NCBI GenBank assembly: GCA_951406725.2
Contig: OX597836.1
Span: 9,052,001 to 9,116,000 of the forward strand
Direction: 5' to 3'
Length of the DNA: 64,000 nucleotides
DNA from: Octopus vulgaris
Lineage: Eukaryota
Shown one piece after another: positions 12,740 to 47,809 of this stretch. A program made the translations under genes and the position numbers. Below the pieces are notes generated by a model. The model made no database searches and was not told the origin of the DNA. It was given only the letters and a program-made list of their open reading frames with translations. How positions within the stretch are numbered: the first letter of the stretch is position 1; each line of letters starts with the position of its first letter.

Positions 12740-13455
12740 AAGGCAGCGAACTGGCAGAATCGTTAGCTCGCCGGGCGAAATGCTTAGCGGTATTTCGTCT
12801 GCCGCTACGTTCAGAGTTCGAATTCCGCCGAGGTCGACTTTGCCTTTCATTCTTTCGGAGTCGATTAAATTAAATACCAGTTACGCACTGGGGTCGACAT
12901 AATCGACTTAATCCGTTTGTTTGTCCCCTCTGTGTTGTCCTCTCCTTGTGGGTTTAGCCCCTAAGTAAAGAAATAGGTATTTCGTCCCCTATTACGTTCT
13001 GAGTTCAAATTCCGCCGAGGTCGACTTCGCCTTTCATCCTTTCGGGGTCGATTAAATAAGAACCAGTTACGCACTGGGGTCGATGTAATCGACTTAATCC
13101 GTTTGTCTGTCCTTGTTTGTCCCCTCTGTGTTTAGCCCCTTGTGGGTAATAAAGAAATAGGTATTTTGTCTGTCTACGTTCTGAGTTCAAATTCCGCCGA
13201 GATCGACTTCGCTTTTCATCCTTTCGGGGTCGATAAATTAAGTTCCAGTTACGTACTAGGATCCTTCTAATCGACTGCCCTCTTCCCCCAAAATTTCGGG
13301 CCCTGTGCCTAAAGTAGAAAAGAAATGCTTAGCGGTATTTCGTCCGTCTTTACGTTCTGAGTTCAAATTCCGCCGAGGAGTTGTGTACTGGGATCGACCT
13401 AATTGACTGGCCCCCGCCCTAAAAATTTCAGGCCTTGTGCCTGAAGTAGAAAAGA
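12740..13455 (+). mobile_element. SINE B head-to-tail tetramer
   Basis: One full unit plus three 5'-truncated units. Flanked by ataaatccagattca (12724-12738) and ataaatccggattca (13456-13470). Confidence 0.9.
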
Positions 13456-18061: not shown

Positions 18062-18140
18062 CTTTTTTCTTTTACTTGTTTCAGTCATTGGACTGCGGCC
18101 ACGCTGGAGCACTGCCTTTAGACGAACAAATCGACCCCCC
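18062..18140 (-). mobile_element. SINE A 3' tail fragment
   Basis: 'ttttacttgtttcagtcattggactgcggccacgctggagcactgcctttag..aaatcgacccc'. Confidence 0.85.
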
Positions 18141-18149
18141 CACACACAC

Positions 18150-19220
18150 ACACATCTCGTCCTGTCCATCGACCGAACACCCATTGTCACCAACGAGGGA
18201 CCTAATTGTGACATTATTGCCACGCTGGGTTTCTACCGTACGGGCCCATCCGGCAACATTAATTCCCTCACGACCCAATGCGCGCACTTCAGCCCGAATT
18301 CTGCACCTTTCATGTTTGGCTTTGAGGTAACGGTCCAAGGCCGTTCTCACCGCCAAAATGTGAAATGCAGAACCCAATCTCAACACTTCCTCTAGGTCTT
18401 TAACTAGCTGCCTTTCTATTCTGGCCCTATCTAGTCTTAGCTGATGGCTAAACCTAACAGACTCAAAACGAATGGCTTTCTTGAGAACGAACCACCATCG
18501 GTTATTAACCCCCACGCTGGTTAACGCCCTCTGTGCTAATTCCTTAAACCGGCTATGGCATGCCTCACAATTCAAAATAGACTTGTTTAGCTTCCAGTAG
18601 CCGGATCCTCTCTTAACTGTACTATCTATGTCCAGTCTACACTTAACCATTCTATGGCCAGTGTAAGCTACTTGGACAAGCTGTGGACAGCTAAAACTAG
18701 GCTTATCTCTAGTTCTTATCACTATCCGAAGTAAGACTTAAACCTTAGATCGAGCCAACGCTATCGATGCGTGCGTCAACAAAAGCGTTATAGTCTCCTA
18801 ACACCACTAATGTCTTCGACGTCACGAGAAAGTTCTCTAGGCGCCGATAAAAATATGTGTGAAGTCCTCTAGCACAATGTGCATATATTCCGATCAATCT
18901 GAAGGCCTTACTGCTGTATGTCACATCAAAGACGACCAGCCCACCTTCAGGGTCTTCATAGACTGTACTTGTTCGCAGAGCCAAGCCTTTCCGGACCAGT
19001 ACAACTACACCCCCTCTCCATCTAATCTGGCTAGGAGACATGATTTTCTCGTAGTCATTCAGGAGGGGCAAGAAGGCTTGTAGACTATCCAGCTTGGGTC
19101 TGTAGCAACCATCACATGCATATCGTGTGATATGAGGTCGTCGAGGACACAAGCTTGCTTCCATTTCGAGCTCAGACCACGCACATTCAAACACCCAAGA
19201 TTAAGTGTAGCCAAAACAAG
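18150..19220 (-). pseudogene. Tx1 ORF2 apurinic-like endonuclease and linker, frameshifted
   Basis: GGVVVLVRK..DPEGGLVVFDV..FRLIGIYA..LVVLGDYNA..TGHRMV (SDH equivalent)..GSGYWKLNKSIL..RARIERQL..AKHERCRIRA. Confidence 0.9.
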
Positions 19221-19224
19221 GGCT

Positions 19225-20632
19225 CTACTTACCCTTCACTGGTGATATTGGGGCTGACCTCACAACACATGAGGCAGCCCTTTCTTCCTCCTCCTTCTTC
19301 AAATATCCTGGAAGGTCCGGGATACTCCTGATGGTCTTTGGATACCTGTCCTTCGGTTGCCTGTAAAGGCCTTCCCCTATCCAGGCACATCTTTCTCTTA
19401 AGTCCTTGTGCTGTTGAAACAGCGTGGTGGTGTGGTAATCTTTTACAATGTCCTCAATGTATTTGTCTCTGGTCTCATATTTTACCAGAGTTTTCGGTTC
19501 GTTATCGTTCGTTTTTTCCCTTTTTTCCTTGTGGGACAACGGGGCAGGGTCGTTTCTTTTTTTGTGGTGTGGTGCTTCCTTTTTCGTTTTCTTTTGTGGG
19601 GGGGGTGTGGATGGGGAAGGTGCGTGTGTTCCTTTCCGAACTGCTGTGAACTCCCCCTCAACCACCTCCATTGTGTCGCCCGGGGGAGTTACATGTTCTG
19701 ATACCACTTTAGTGGGGGTGGGTTTTTTTGACGTTATCTGGACATGTGTATGCATGGGCTGGGGTTTTGGGGTGTTGTGTTTGGGGGCGGACACCACAAA
19801 TGGGGGAGTAGAAATTTTTGTTTCTGTGGGGGCTTGTGTGTGCGGGTTTGGGGTCTTTTTTTGTAATTAAGGGGTCTGGTGTCTGCGCCACTTTTCTTTT
19901 CCATAGTTCACAGTCTATACGGATGTGGCTTTTTTTCCACAATCGTAAACATGTTGGCTTTTTGTCCTCTACTTGTATTCTGAGGGCGATATCCTCACCC
20001 AAGAGCACCCTCTCTGGAACTATTTCAATATCTTCCTGAGTTCCCTGAATAATGGAAGAAATGCTTTGCCCGAGCCAGTTTTGTGGGGCAGAGTGTGTGA
20101 TCTGAAGGAAGGCGATTTTGTCCGTCCTGTTATACAACAGGACGGCCATCACCTCCCTTACATCAACTTCAGGTGGCACTTCTGTCACTCTTACTCGAGC
20201 AGTTCGTCTCCCCATGTAGGTTGGCAGAAGTACCAACTCCTTTGTTTTCAGGGGACTCACTGAGTGCTTTTGGGCTTTTACTTCTGTTTCAAATCTGGCC
20301 TCTACTGTGCCGTAAGTCCGGCCCCTCGCTATATACTTTATGTCTTCTCATAGGGGAGCCAGACATTTTTCAATTTTGCACTGCTCAAAGTGCTTAAATT
20401 TCTTTGTTGAAGGACAGTATATTTTAAAAACAACTGTCCTTCTTTTCAATTTTTCAACACTAGGTGAGGGTGATGTTTTTATATCACCCCACCCTTCTTT
20501 CATTTTTTCAAAAAACTCGGAGAGCTTTTCCTTTGGTAGTTCAACGTTTTCAGTAGCCACTGCGGTAACTGCTGAAAATTTCTTAACTGGCTGTTCCAGT
20601 GAATGCTTCTCTGAAATTATTTCGACCGACAT
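19225..20632 (-). pseudogene. Tx1 ORF1 (gag-like), broken over three ORF segments
   Basis: ORFs 20348-20659, 19709-20260 and 19225-19797. LLPTYMGRRTARVRVTEVPPEV and a decayed zinc knuckle PTCLRLWKKSHIRIDC, then a Pro/Lys-rich tail. Confidence 0.8.
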
Positions 20633-25096: not shown

Positions 25097-25722
25097 AGGC
25101 GACGAATTGGCAGAATCGTTAGCACGCCGGGTGAAACGCTTAGCGGTATTTCGTCTGCCGTTACGTTCTGAGTTCAAATTCCGCCGAGGTTGACTTTGCC
25201 TTTCATCCTTTCAGGGTCGATAAATAACGTACCAGTTGTGTACTGGGGTCGATATAATCGACTTCACCCGTTTGTCTGTCCTTGTTTGTCTCCTCTGTGT
25301 TTAGCCCCTTGTGGGTAGTAAAGAAATAGAAATAGGTATTTCATCTGCCGTTACGTCCTGAGTTCAAATTCCGCCGAGGTCGACTTTGCCTTTCATCCTT
25401 TCGGGGTCGATAAATTAAGTACCAGTTACGCACTGGGGTCGATGTAATCAACTTAATCCCTTTGTCTGTCCTTGTTTGTCCCTTCTGTGTTTAATCGCTT
25501 GTGGGCAATAAAGAAAGCACGTCGGGCGAAATGCTTAGCGGTATTTCGTCTGCCGTTACGTCCTGAGTTCAAATTCCGCCGAGGTCGACTTTGCCTTTCA
25601 TCCTTTCGGGGTCGATAAATTAAGTAACAGTTATGCACTGGGGTCGATATAATCGACTTAATTCGTTTGTCTCTCCTTGTTTGTCCCCTCTGTGTTTAGC
25701 CCCTTGTGGGCAGTAAAGAAAT
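25097..25722 (+). mobile_element. SINE B head-to-tail trimer
   Basis: Three units; flanks taagaagtgcagaa (25084-25097) and taagaaactgcagaa (25722-25736). Confidence 0.9.
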
Positions 25723-25974
25723 AAGAAACTGCAGAACCGTCTTTCTCGGACTACGAGAAACTACCATTATGTTATATCGTGTTGATATGTATATAAATAC
25801 CAATATGTGTGGGTGTCTAATTGCTATGAAGGGACAATGACACTGTCGTGCTGATGATATATATATATATATTTCTATGCTTAGGTGTTTTATGTTAGAT
25901 AAGCGTCTACGTAGCGGTTACGCCAAATCGCTAATGAGGTTAATCGTCTCAGGTTGCAAAGCAAGAGGAAATAG

Positions 25975-30770: not shown

Positions 30771-31339
30771 GGTCGTCGTCGTCGTCGTCGCCGTCGTATT
30801 TTTGATACTTTTTTCGTTGCTATTTTTTATGTCAATTTTTCTTCCACTTCGTACTCCATCGTCATTAACTGTGGTTAAATTCATTCAAATTTAAAAAAAA
30901 ACAAACAATAAACAGAAGTTACGGAGAAACATAACAGATCTACAAAACAAAAACCATAAAGCAACAACAATCAAAAAAACAAATTTCATTAATTCACTTA
31001 ACATTGAAAAGAAACGAACGAATTTATCTGACAGCTCAAAATACGTCGTTCGAGTACAAGAAATAAAATGAACGGAAATACACGAACGAACATCGATATT
31101 TCCGCCCATTAAGTCGGACGCACGAAGCAGCTTTTATTATATTGTCGTTTGAGACCTGGTCGGAAATGGGACTTGCTTAAGCGGTAGGAAAAAATTCTGC
31201 TACATGGCAGATGGTGTTGCTTTCGCCATTGCCAATTAAAACGTCGTGAGGAAGAGCTTCCCCGACGGAATTGCGTTTGAATGTTACTGAACAAGTCTCA
31301 AGGATTATAGACGTAAGTATCGATGAAATAAATCAAACC

Positions 31340-32159
31340 TATTTCTTTACTACCCACAAGGGGCTAAACATAGAGAGGACAAACAAGGACAGACAGACGG
31401 ATTAAGCCGATTATATCGACCCCAGTGCGTAACTGGTACTTATTTAATCGACCCCGAAAGGATGAAAGGCAAAGTCGATCTCACCGGAATTTGAACTCAC
31501 AACGTAGCGGCAGACGAAATACCTATTTCTTTACTACCCACAAGGGGCTAAAAACAGAGAGGACAAACAAGGACAGACAAATGGATTAAGTCCATTATAT
31601 CGACCCCAGTGCGTAACTGGTACTTATTTAATCGACCCCGAAAGGATGAAAGGCAAAGTCGACCTCGGCGGAATTTGAACTCACAACGTAGCGGCAGACG
31701 AAATACCTATTTCTTTACTACCCACAAGGGGCTAAAAACAGAGAGGACAAACAAGGGCAGACAAATGGATTAAGTCGATTATATTGACCCCAGTGCGTAA
31801 CTGGTACTTATTTAATCGACCCCGAAAGGATGAAAGGCAAAGTCGACCTCGGTGGAATTTGAACTCAGAACGTAACGGCAGACGAAATACGGCTAAGCAT
31901 TTCGCCCGGCGTGCTAACGTTTCTTATTTCTTTACTGCCCACAAGGGGCTAAACATAGAGGGGACAAACAAGGACAGACAAAGGGATTAAGTCGATTAGA
32001 TCGACCCCAGTGCGTAACTGGTACTTAATTTATCGACCCCGAAAGGATGAAAGGCAAAGTCGACCTCGGCGGAATTTGAACTCAGAACGAAAAGACAGAC
32101 GAAATACCGGCAAGCATTTCGCCCGGTGTGCTAACGATTCTGCCAGTTCGCGCCGCCTT
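31340..32159 (-). mobile_element. SINE B head-to-tail tetramer
   Basis: Four units; flanks taaatcaaacc (31329-31339) and taaatcagacc (32160-32170). Confidence 0.9.
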
Positions 32160-43939: not shown

Positions 43940-44291
43940 TGTAGGTGTGAATGTGAAGAGGGCCCTGAAGAGTATGTGAATGCGTGTGTGAGTGTTTGTG
44001 CGCTCGCGCACGTGTGTGTTTGTGTGTACATGAATGTCAAAATGTATGTTTATCTGTGTTACTGTCTCTGTTTGAATGTGTGTGTGTGTGTATATGTATA
44101 CATATGTATATATATGTTATAAATATATTAAGTGTATATGTTCACATTAAATGTATATATGCATGTATATACATACATATATTGTATATAAATATATGTG
44201 TATGTATGTATGTATGTATGTATGTATGTATGTATGTATGTATGTATGTATGGTAAATGAAAGACGGAAGATGGAATATACGAGAATTTAT

Positions 44292-44407
44292 TATTAATCA
44301 CGACAATTGTTTCGACACATCTAGCTTCGATCCCTCACGGATGAAACGCTTAACAACTGGTTCAGGAGCACCCGGCGGTGCAGATGTGTCTCATCAGGTG
44401 ATAAATA
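44292..44407 (-). ncRNA. Type I hammerhead ribozyme, intact core
   Basis: Minus: tatttatcac [CTGATGA] GACACATCT ..59 nt.. AGATGTGTC [GAAA] CAATTG [TC] gtgattaata. Stem I 9/10 pairs, stem II 9 bp, palindromic stem III ACAATTGT, GUC site with predicted cut between 44302 and 44301. Confidence 0.85.
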
Positions 44408-44560
44408 GACACAGATCGTTAAAATAACAGTTCCGCAATGTGTCTTCTCATTTCGTAGAAAGAAAAGCAGCAAAAGGAAGGGAAATATCTTCATTAATAT
44501 AGAAGATCAAAGATAAAATCACAGATCCCAAAAAGAAACGAACACGCAATATATATATAT

Positions 44561-45064
44561 TATTTCAGATTACCCTTTGATATTATTAATTATTGATAAA
44601 GTTTTTCCTGGATAATTTTTGAAATGAAAAAGCCGGCATATTTATTTACTGCCGACAGGGAGCTGCGCTTGCGCAGTAGATTTGAAAAATTAGAATGTAT
44701 AAGCACGGGGCATATACTGGATTGCCTTGTGTATATATATTTGATCTAAGGTGTACCTGCTGAAGAAGGCTTCGCCTAGCAAATTATTTTATTTGCTAAA
44801 AAAAGTCTGAAACCATTGGTCCAGGAGTTAGATGGTAAATGTTTTTATTTTTCGTTCCGTTCGAAATTTTATCCCTAACAGTGGTTTGGAATTTAACTGT
44901 CCTCTCTAGCGTGCATGTAGTCCTATGATGGATACCTTTTATGTGTTTAAATGTACACTGTATTTATATGAATAATATATAGTCTATTGACTAAAATAAT
45001 TACACGCTAGGCCACTGGTAAAGGAAATTTCTTATATTTCAGATTATCCTTTGATATTATTAAT
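44561..45064 (+). mobile_element. Non-coding ribozyme-bearing element (retrozyme / Penelope-like), 474-nt unit with 30-nt terminal direct repeat
   Basis: tatttcagatta(c/t)cctttgatattattaat at 44561-44590 and 45035-45064 (29/30 identical); internal HHR; microsatellite flanks. Confidence 0.7.
44744..44833 (+). ncRNA. Type I hammerhead ribozyme, intact core
   Basis: atctaa-ggtgta-cctg [CTGAAGA] AGGCTT cgcc TAGCAAAT tatttt ATTTGCTA aaaa AAGTCT [GAAA] CCATTGG [TC] cagg-ag-ttagat. Bipartite stem I with internal loop; predicted cut after 44821. Confidence 0.85.
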
Positions 45065-45120
45065 CATATATATATACACACACACACACACACGCACACA
45101 CACACACACACACACATACG

Positions 45121-45518
45121 AAGGCGGCGAGCTGGCAGAATCGTTAGCACGCCGGGCGAAGTGCTTAGCGGTATTTCGTCTGTCTTTACGTTCTGAGTTC
45201 AAATTCCGCCGAGGTCGACTTTGCCTTTCATCCTTTTGGAGTCGATTAAGTAAATACCAGTTACGCACTGGGGTCGATATAATCGACTTAATCCGTTTGT
45301 CTGTCCTTGTTTGTCCTCTCTGTGTTTAGCCCCTTGTGGGTAGTAAAGAAATAGGTATTTCGTCTGTCTTTACGTTCTGAGTTCAAATTCCGCCGAGGTT
45401 GACTTTGCCTTTCATCCTTTCGGGGTTGATAAATTAAGCACCAGTTGCGTACTGGGGTCGATCTAATCGACTGGTCCCTTCCCCCAAAATTTCGAGCCTT
45501 GTGCCCAGAGTGAAAAGA
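45121..45518 (+). mobile_element. SINE B dimer
   Basis: Full unit plus a unit starting 'gtatttcgtc' after 'aaagaaatag'. Confidence 0.9.
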
Positions 45519-46144
45519 ATACACACACACACATACACACACAGAGTAAATATTTATCAAACGGTTATGATATCAATACGTTTAAAAGCACAACATAAGA
45601 AGAGTGAAAAAAAAATGATTAAAACAAAAATCTCCCCCGAGAATCGAACCACAGATCCCACAACTCTCTTCCATCTGACGAAGGACATTACACAAAAGTA
45701 ACCCGCCGTCCCTGCTATCGAATTTTGTTAGCATAAGCAAGCATACTGTTGGATTAGCTATCACTGTTTGCCTTCATTTGATTTTCGTTGGATTTTTTCA
45801 TATACCCTCAAGCGGTGAGAGGTCGTCCCGTTGTTATCAACGACAGTTTAATCTCATACAAGACACATCCATGCTGATCGATACGAACTCTCTGTATAAA
45901 TATAATATCATATGAATGGCTGAGACTTAAGCACTTTTATACGTATAGCGTACGATGGAATAACATATAAGACAAAACTGCAAACAGGAATTATTGAATA
46001 TATTTCGACTACCATGAAATACATACGTGTGTGTATATGTGTGCGTGCACGCGTGTGTGTGAGAGTATGTATGTATGCATATGTGTATATATATGTATAT
46101 ATATATATGTATAAATATACATATACATTTATATAGATATATAT

Positions 46145-46963: not shown

Positions 46964-47809
46964 TACAGAACAGATTTAACTTAGTAGAAGGTAGCTTGTA
47001 CCGTGATGAGGGACTTCTTTTATTAACTATGTGAATAACCATCAAAAAATATAATAAACAGTCAAAATAAGGATAAAACTAGGTTATTCACAGATTTGAA
47101 CCTGCAAGTCGTAGTCTGTACAACCTCCCAAAAGAGTTTAATTTCCTTGACATAACAATGAAATTAGTTGCTCTAAAATACCACCCCTAAAGAAAATCGA
47201 ATGAATTCCTACAGAACATCCGTAAAATTTCAAACCACCCACCAGCTATCATAAAGAATCTATCCCCAAAACACTAATCTCAAGTTATCTAGCATCTCGT
47301 ACGATGAAACTTCCTTTAAAACGCAGCAGATAATTATAACGAAACCCTCTGAAGGAATGGCTTTAAGGATAAGATAAATAAGTCGCCAAGAACGACATTC
47401 ATAACACCAGATGTAAAAACAGACGATATAAGACATTATGGTAGGAGAGAAAGAGAGGAATGAACAGGCAAACAGGTGGATAGAGTAAGAAAAAGAGACA
47501 AGAAGAGAGAGAGAGAGAGAGAGAGGGAGAATGAGAGAGAGAATGACAGAATGAGAGAATGGGAGAATGGGAGATCGTTTCATACTAACTATGGTTAAGT
47601 GTATGTGTGTTTGCGTGAGTGTAGAAGGGAGAAGCAAAGACAGAGAGACAAAGTGAGAAGGAGAGAGAGAGAATAAAAGACAACGGAGAGAGAGGGGAGA
47701 GAGAGAAAAGACATGCATAGAGAGAGAGAGAGAGACAGACGGACAGACAGAAAGATGAAGAGAGAGACGTACAGTGCTAACGTTAACACATCATTTATTG
47801 ACTCTGTGT

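What the first reader, a model, noticed from the sequence alone, without database searches (positions are those of the whole stretch)
44253..45064. Two different intact hammerhead ribozymes back-to-back on opposite strands
Seen: a minus-strand HHR (44292-44407; CUGAUGA, GAAA, GUC) and a plus-strand HHR (44744-44833; CUGAAGA, GAAA, GUC) within ~810 bp of ORF-less sequence bounded by microsatellites. Their stems are unrelated, so this is not an inverted duplication. Established: type I HHRs with short palindromic stem III occur in Penelope-like elements and retrozymes, and ribozymes in both polarities mark viroid-like RNAs. Inference: most likely two distinct ribozyme retroelements inserted into the same (TA)n tract (44549-44560). 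The less likely but more exciting option is one ambisense two-ribozyme element. Either way a transcript through here in either direction could self-cleave.
Basis: partly seen in the sequence, partly recalled or inferred. Interest (0 to 1): 0.85.

Follow-up and report, generated by a model that had tools for sequence, protein, structure and literature searches.

The report
Two neighbouring hammerhead-ribozyme retroelement copies
Two unrelated, multi-copy mobile elements, each carrying a predicted self-cutting RNA motif, sit back to back in one microsatellite, likely because both insert into such repeats; the pairing is ordinary in this genome and is not one two-ribozyme element.

Summary
Both hammerhead motifs are real, at the stated coordinates, and beyond chance. 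They belong to two separate repeat families of this 2.8-Gb animal genome. Left (44253-44550, minus): the 5'-truncated 3' end of a Penelope-like element (PLE). Longer copies run into a reverse-transcriptase/endonuclease ORF with the Hydra-clade motifs. Right (44561-45064, plus): a 474-nt non-coding unit plus 30 nt of a preceding copy. Other copies show PLE-type partial tandems, 5' inversions and (TA)n ends, so it is likely a non-autonomous PLE or retrozyme; no partner ORF was found. The halves co-occur at no other locus examined and the junction is unique among scored hits, which refutes a single ambisense element. Unrelated hammerheads lie within about 1.5 kb at 7 of 116 other loci. New detail: most left-family copies have a non-canonical U4C core (31 of 43), so the canonical core here probably arose by CpG decay. 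A sister family of the right element keeps all three helices with different letters. Cleavage and expression are untested. Ordinary arrangement of new members of known kinds.

The parts
44199..44252 (.). (TGTA)n microsatellite at the 3' end of the left element
   Evidence: most other left copies also end in (TA/CA/CATA)n
44253..44550 (-). Family L: 5'-truncated 3' UTR (pseudo-LTR region) of a Hydra-clade Penelope-like element; begins about 260 nt past the ORF stop seen in longer copies
   Evidence: 16 of 20 loci found with the ORF protein carry this segment downstream
44292..44407 (-). Type I hammerhead motif of family L (C3 44397, GAAA 44313-44310, C17 44302). U4 here, C4 in most other copies
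44549..44560 (.). (AT)6 remnant of the shared target microsatellite between the two 5' ends
   Evidence: sequence; family boundaries; junction unique among 40 scored hits
44561..44590 (+). Family R: last 30 nt of a truncated upstream tandem copy (direct repeat of 45035-45064, spacing 474)
   Evidence: upstream partial tandems in 34 of 48 other R loci
44591..45064 (+). Family R: one full 474-nt non-coding unit (likely non-autonomous PLE or retrozyme)
44744..44833 (+). Type I hammerhead motif of family R (C3 44760, GAAA 44809-44812, C17 44821)
   Evidence: canonical core in 21 of 29 other copies; helices kept in sister family R2
45065..45116 (.). (TA)n(CA)n microsatellite at the 3' end of the right element
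   Evidence: microsatellite 3' flank in 34 of 48 other R loci

Best explanation
The region is two independent multi-copy elements with one hammerhead motif each, likely inserted by Penelope-like reverse transcription into the same microsatellite in opposite directions. Shown: the left piece is the truncated 3' end of a family whose longer copies encode an RT/endonuclease ORF with Hydra-clade motifs; the right piece is a 474-nt non-coding unit whose copies show partial tandems, 5' inversions, two preferred 3' ends and (TA)n flanks. Inferred: a PLE GIY-YIG endonuclease nicks (TA)n-type repeats and primes reverse transcription from the RNA 3' end, and early termination gives the truncated 5' ends. 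The right family would borrow such an enzyme in trans. The ribozymes likely served to cut tandem precursor RNAs of their source elements, probably as dimers given the short palindromic stem III. These two single, diverged copies are probably dead passengers. The order of the two insertions cannot be read from the sequence.
For: The halves occur apart: 0 of 29 other R loci hold L and 0 of 29 other L loci hold R within about 1.5 kb; 0 of 48 distinct R loci hold L; the junction is matched end to end only by the window among 40 scored of 1162 candidates. Copy lower bounds from exact motifs: 172 (L) and 111 (R). L ORF motifs RWK, DKT, YRDD, CxCX5C linker, YIG, CxxC and CxH, without the CCHH cysteine pair, match the Hydra definition (PMC8557442 section 11). 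The atlas gave a GIY-YIG cluster at score 0.93 with PF01541 on 41% of members. R loci: 34 of 48 with an upstream partial tandem, 22 of 48 with an inverted piece, 34 of 48 with a microsatellite 3' flank, 3' ends mainly at unit position 474 (19) or 391 (9). L also has two 3' ends about 80 nt apart, like the PLE tail (PMC11167929). R stem III ACCA-U-UGGU resembles the published Hydra-1_oBim acca-a-tggt (compared by eye). Unrelated hammerheads lie at 7 of 116 other loci, with 0 hits in 1.18 Mb of shuffled control. An R piece sits beside another PLE family's hammerhead at 1 of 29 loci.
Against: No Rfam hammerhead match. No Pfam RT or GIY-YIG hit for 7 ORF pieces, no hit in the homolog search and none in PDB, so the clade call rests on motifs read by eye in frameshifted copies, without a tree against reference PLEs. 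No autonomous partner of R was found. The R unit is longer than the ~220-400-nt retrozyme monomers in the passages seen of PMC7229834, though within the 51-972 bp range of the 2026 preprint. No target-site duplication is visible. Genome searches score only the top 40-150 candidates, so a rare second joined copy is not formally excluded.
Confidence: 0.9

Rival explanations
1. One ambisense, viroid-like element with a ribozyme on each strand, inserted or replicated as an 812-nt unit.
For: Ribozymes of both polarities lie within 450 nt with no ORF between them.
Against: The halves were found only apart, the junction is unique, the left half continues into a PLE ORF elsewhere, and no contig piece listed from 4 public runs spans the whole stretch. 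There is no terminal repeat joining 44253 to 45064.
Confidence: 0.01
2. The right unit is not a non-autonomous family but the pseudo-LTR of an autonomous PLE whose ORF-bearing copies were missed.
For: Partial tandems, inversions and two 3' ends are PLE pseudo-LTR features (PMC8557442 Fig. 2 legend). Searches ranked copies by similarity to the short unit.
Against: In 34 of 48 loci the sequence directly upstream is the unit's own 3' end. PLE protein pieces gave 1 weak hit (E 0.005, not adjacent) in the 48 masked flanks. R was absent from 20 L-ORF loci and from the 3' UTR position of 29 loci of a second PLE family. The sister family R2 is also a ~500-nt non-coding unit.
Confidence: 0.12
3. The back-to-back pair is a 5' inversion within a single insertion event, as often seen in PLEs.
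For: Such inversions are frequent: 7 of 48 R loci hold opposite-strand hammerheads, and 6 minus/plus pairs appear among 100 listed R motif hits and 3 among 100 listed L hits (read by eye).
Against: Those pairs are two copies of one family. Here the halves are unrelated and separated by (AT)6. A template switch between two RNAs cannot be excluded but is not needed.
Confidence: 0.04
4. The pair has been kept by the host as a bidirectional transcript terminator.
For: Both cores are canonical in this copy, whereas only 6 of 43 other L copies and 21 of 29 other R copies have a fully canonical core.
Against: The L canonical U4 fits CpG decay. Both copies are about 5% from their family majority. No gene context or expression was shown.
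Confidence: 0.03

Closest known systems
Hydra-clade Penelope-like elements (Craig et al. 2021, PMC8557442), including Hydra-1_Obim
   Same: Family L: single C-terminal-endonuclease ORF with RWK, DKT, CxCX5C, CxxC and CxH motifs; sense-strand type I hammerhead in the 3' region; (TA)n targets; about 3 kb in the longest copy seen (L088).
   Different: The hammerhead sequence differs from all Hydra entries in the paper's File S2 (compared by eye). Helix II carries a 58-nt insert. Most copies have a U4C core, which none of the listed Hydra entries shows.
Non-LTR retrozymes of animals (PMC7229834; bioRxiv 10.64898/2026.07.22.740005)
   Same: Family R: non-coding, head-to-tail unit, one type I hammerhead per unit, low GC.
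   Different: 474-nt unit; mostly single units with partial tandems and inversions rather than arrays (6 of 48 loci with two same-strand hammerheads); circular RNA not shown.
Opposite-strand dual minimal hammerheads in Schistosoma (PMC4209133)
   Same: Two hammerheads on opposite strands 100-700 bp apart in a PLE-rich genome.
   Different: Here the two motifs come from different families; the passage seen does not say whether the Schistosoma pairs are of one family.
Viroid-like ambisense circular RNAs
   Same: A ribozyme motif in each polarity.
   Different: No shared unit, no second joined copy, and each half has its own retroelement history.

Membership tests
Type I hammerhead ribozyme | Core CUGANGA / GAAA / UH joined by three helices, helix I open | tested here: met
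   Both motifs parse; 0 of 2000 shuffles
Type I hammerhead ribozyme | Helices kept through sequence change | tested here: met
   R versus sister R2: helix I CCUG/CAGG versus CGGUUA/UAACCG, helix II AGGCU/AGUCU versus GGAUU/AAUCU, stem III ACCAUUGGU versus ACCUAGGU. 11 of 20 R2 loci parse; their 3' half was fixed by the search pattern. Not tested for L.
Type I hammerhead ribozyme | Match to an Rfam hammerhead model | tested here: not met
   No hit at gathering score or at E<=5; the long helix II inserts are a likely reason (inference)
Type I hammerhead ribozyme | Self-cleavage after H17 | not testable with these tools
   The active fold lies 2.7 (L) and 3.5 (R) kcal/mol above the predicted minimum for the monomer
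Hydra-clade PLE (family L) | RWK motif and DKT in place of DKG | tested here: met
   KMRWKAFFF and FVPADKTS in L078/L088
Hydra-clade PLE (family L) | [quoted passage not shown] | tested here: met
   CSCGEKSKC and CSCRDKSKC, then VYK...YIG; atlas GIY-YIG lead; Pfam gave no hit
Hydra-clade PLE (family L) | No CCHH motif; CxxC and CxH around the conserved E and N | tested here: met
   One Cys between VYK and YIG; CCLCSEE and RCRH in L087
Hydra-clade PLE (family L) | (TA)n insertion and sense hammerhead near the 3' end | tested here: met
Hydra-clade PLE (family L) | Canonical hammerhead core | tested here: inconclusive
   Canonical in the window copy, but C4 in 31 of 43 other copies
Hydra-clade PLE (family L) | RT phylogeny within the Hydra clade | not tested
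Non-LTR retrozyme (family R) | Non-coding unit with one type I hammerhead | tested here: met
Non-LTR retrozyme (family R) | Tandem of at least two hammerhead-bearing units | tested here: inconclusive
   Not in the window copy (one unit plus 30 nt); two same-strand hammerheads in 6 of 48 other loci
Non-LTR retrozyme (family R) | Unit-length circular RNA | not testable with these tools
   Only contigs were available, no raw RNA reads
Ambisense viroid-like element | Both ribozymes on one unit that recurs as a unit | tested here: not met

The most novel reading that the evidence does not exclude
Families R and R2 are molluscan-type retrozymes carried by Hydra-clade PLE machinery (PLE inversions, 83-nt tail, Hydra-like stem III) that make a ~474-nt circular RNA, while the autonomous family L spread to more than a thousand copies with a weakened U4C core. 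Together they would show that cleavage is selected in the non-coding passengers but relaxed in the autonomous element, a natural test of whether hammerheads merely parasitise PLEs.
Probability: 0.3. Interest if true: 0.5.

Novelty: new member of a known kind. Interest (0 to 1): 0.25.

Why it matters
As an arrangement it matters little: it shows that hammerhead-bearing retroelements pile up in shared microsatellite targets, so both-strand ribozyme pairs in animal DNA should not be read as viroid-like without a junction test. The by-products are more useful. They are an apparently unlisted Hydra-clade family whose majority core is U4C, and two sister non-coding families with compensatory helices and PLE insertion marks. 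These bear on two open points stated in print: what PLE hammerheads do (PMC8557442 section 15; PMC11167929 found cleavage dispensable for insertion in vitro) and whether animal retrozymes are non-autonomous PLEs (bioRxiv 10.64898/2026.07.22.740005, whose species sample in the parts read names no mollusc).

Tried and rejected
Rfam at two thresholds: no hammerhead. Folding energy does not separate sense from antisense strand. Pfam (7 pieces), the longer-homolog search (713 candidates, none at E<=0.001) and PDB did not name the L ORF. Selenocysteine reading of the many TGA stops in L copies was rejected: they fall mostly at Arg, Gly and Trp positions and none at Cys. Expression: no RNA holder listed; contigs of 4 runs cover both families in pieces but cannot show strand, ends or cleavage, so this is no evidence either way. 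Two R2 hammerheads 3092 bp apart (L139) looked like two pseudo-LTRs around an ORF but enclose only simple repeats and other repeats. The search for an autonomous partner of R among L-ORF loci and a second PLE family found none. A U4 subfamily of L was rejected: U4 needs 10 changes on the tree against a shuffled mean of 9.8, and the tree is poorly resolved; the window's diagnostic variants are shared with one other copy only. Earlier scan notes held nothing. Literature searches: octopus + hammerhead ribozyme, hammerhead + U4C or core variants and CCGAUGA/CCGANGA/CCGACGA + hammerhead listed no report of these families or of a U4C PLE family. Repbase, Dfam, subscription papers and bioRxiv supplements could not be seen and may hold them.

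Full report
Observation. The sequence holds both motifs as described. A descriptor for core plus three helices finds only these two in 64 kb, and none in 2000 dinucleotide shuffles of the 812 nt. Cleavage positions are C17 = 44302 (minus) and C17 = 44821 (plus). The longest stop-free frame is 61 codons. Rfam found no hammerhead at gathering score or at E<=5, and folding energy is only mildly better than shuffles on both strands, so these two checks add no support.

Two families. The window lies on contig C23 of a 2.8-Gb, microsatellite-rich genome. I take it for an octopus-like mollusc from recall; this was not tested. With the whole 812 nt as query, 40 of 6300 candidates were scored, and apart from the window itself all matches begin at query position 297 or later, that is in the right half. 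The left 298 nt find their own set (40 scored of 3274; 86-92% identity). In about 1.5 kb of flank, 0 of 29 other right loci hold the left piece and 0 of 29 other left loci hold the right piece; 0 of 48 distinct right loci do so in the larger set (58 fetched, 10 duplicates dropped). A 181-nt junction query is matched across the join only by the window among 40 scored of 1162 candidates. Exact motif counts give lower bounds of 172 left and 111 right copies. Allowing for 5-8% divergence this suggests roughly 1400 and 400 copies (my estimate). The single ambisense element is therefore rejected, within the limit that only top candidates are scored.

Left family (L). Other copies extend up to 1.5 kb or more upstream with ragged 5' ends and share the 3' end at 44253, mostly followed by (TA), (CA) or (CATA) repeats; 4 of 29 carry an extra ~80-nt tail. 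The upstream sequence is an ORF. 16 of 20 loci found with that protein carry the window segment downstream (one of them is the query's own locus). The longest copy read (L078/L088, about 3 kb, frameshifted) shows RWK, DKT, RT motifs FLQIDIESYY, AMGSHDSAQVSDL and YRD, a CxCX5C linker and VYK...YIG; L069 shows YRDD and L087 adds CxxC and CxH. These are the features that define the Hydra clade of Penelope-like elements in PMC8557442 (sections 11 and 15 read). Its supplement lists one octopus family, Hydra-1_Obim, with a different hammerhead (part 2 of 59 read). Pfam, the homolog search and PDB did not recognise the pieces; the atlas gave a GIY-YIG cluster as a lead (0.93, 41% of members). The assignment thus rests on motifs, not on a tree.

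The L core. Among 43 other copies that span the motif (of 48 given), position 4 is C in 31, T in 10 and other in 2; only 6 have a fully canonical core. In an independent motif search 77 of the 100 listed rows (172 in all) have C4 (counted by eye). The CG/TG/CA split at that site (26/10/4) is in the range of other CpG sites, and U4 copies are scattered on a weakly resolved tree. The source element most likely had CCGA(C/U)GA, and the canonical core seen here likely arose by CpG decay, in this copy or in a source shared with L032, the only other copy with its diagnostic variants. U4C is reported to reduce activity considerably in vitro yet to permit viroid infectivity (PMC3088659, passage).

Right family (R). 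The unit is 474 nt, preceded here by the last 30 nt of another unit. Of 48 other loci, 34 have such an upstream partial tandem, 22 an inverted piece, 11 two or more hammerhead segments (7 with opposite strands, 6 with same-strand pairs, 2 in both groups), and 34 a microsatellite 3' flank. The 3' ends cluster at unit positions 474 (19 loci) and 391 (9 loci), 83 nt apart. Partial tandems, 5' inversions and an optional tail are PLE signatures (PMC8557442 Fig. 2 legend; PMC11167929 passages). The core is canonical in 21 of 29 copies. A loose end in public contigs led to a sister family R2 (32 exact motif hits), about 70% identical along the unit, in which all three helices differ in letters but still pair; 11 of 20 loci parse as type I hammerheads. 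This is the best evidence that the fold was under selection in the source elements. No ORF-bearing partner was found. R works like a non-LTR retrozyme (PMC7229834 passages; preprint parts 1-2 of 5). Membership is incomplete, because arrays are rare and no circular RNA was shown.

Is the pairing surprising? No. A relaxed descriptor over 116 fetched loci (393 kb) found 9 unrelated type I hammerheads at 7 loci; the script flagged 8 loci, and I dropped L103 because its hit is an R copy. Block-shuffled controls gave 0 hits in 1.18 Mb. An R piece lies beside a different PLE family's hammerhead at 1 of 29 further loci. Opposite-strand pairs from inversion are routine within each family, and such pairs 100-700 bp apart were reported in Schistosoma (PMC4209133, parts 1-2 of 4 read).

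Mechanism. Shown: family boundaries, ORF linkage of L, insertion signatures, shared microsatellite flanks. Inferred from established PLE biology: endonuclease nicking at (TA)n-type repeats, target-primed reverse transcription from the 3' end, 5' truncation, and trans-mobilisation of R. Untested: cleavage. The active monomer folds are predicted 2.7 and 3.5 kcal/mol above the minimum, and PLE hammerheads are reported to be weak as monomers. Each strand here has one ribozyme only. The copies are about 5% from their family majority (copies were chosen by likeness to the window), consistent with decaying passengers.

Verdict. A real but ordinary co-insertion of two hammerhead retroelements, both new members of known kinds as far as the searches named under Tried and rejected reach; Repbase, Dfam and closed supplements were not seen. 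The U4C majority core of L and the R/R2 pair are modest leads. Interest 0.25.

Noticed in passing
window 47131-47376 (+): Decayed fragment of another PLE ORF (RT thumb region, 30% identity to the L ORF, E 4e-6), 2 kb from the finding, with no hammerhead detected.
   Followed up: partly
window 18084-20347 (-): Broken reading frames that look like a LINE-type ORF1 and AP endonuclease/RT start (label recalled, not tested).
   Followed up: no
window 45120-45523, 12789-13276, 25144-25728, 31337-32141: Dispersed repeat with internal 182-217-nt tandem units, directly right of the finding and many times in the window; looks like a SINE (recalled).
   Followed up: no
L119-L138: Sister family R2, ~500-nt non-coding unit, hammerhead with perfect palindromic stem III ACCUAGGU and cleavage after A.
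   Followed up: partly
L017:184, L020:2354 and 2415, L044:1192, L051:2185, L085:3184, L119:747, L131:511 and 2537: At least seven further unrelated type I hammerhead types; the one in L017 also has a C4 core.
   Followed up: no
L143-L171: A second abundant PLE family (9369 candidates, 150 scored) with a CX5-6C-type linker and its own short hammerhead about 550-850 nt downstream in several copies.
   Followed up: partly
L032 (G000:C23:8471251-8471540): The only other L copy with the window's diagnostic variants, including U4, lies 625 kb away on the same contig; flanks are not clearly shared. Local copying or a shared source copy; unexplained.
   Followed up: partly
G000:C10:94951655-95544924: Five of the 100 listed R motif hits cluster within 600 kb.
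   Followed up: no
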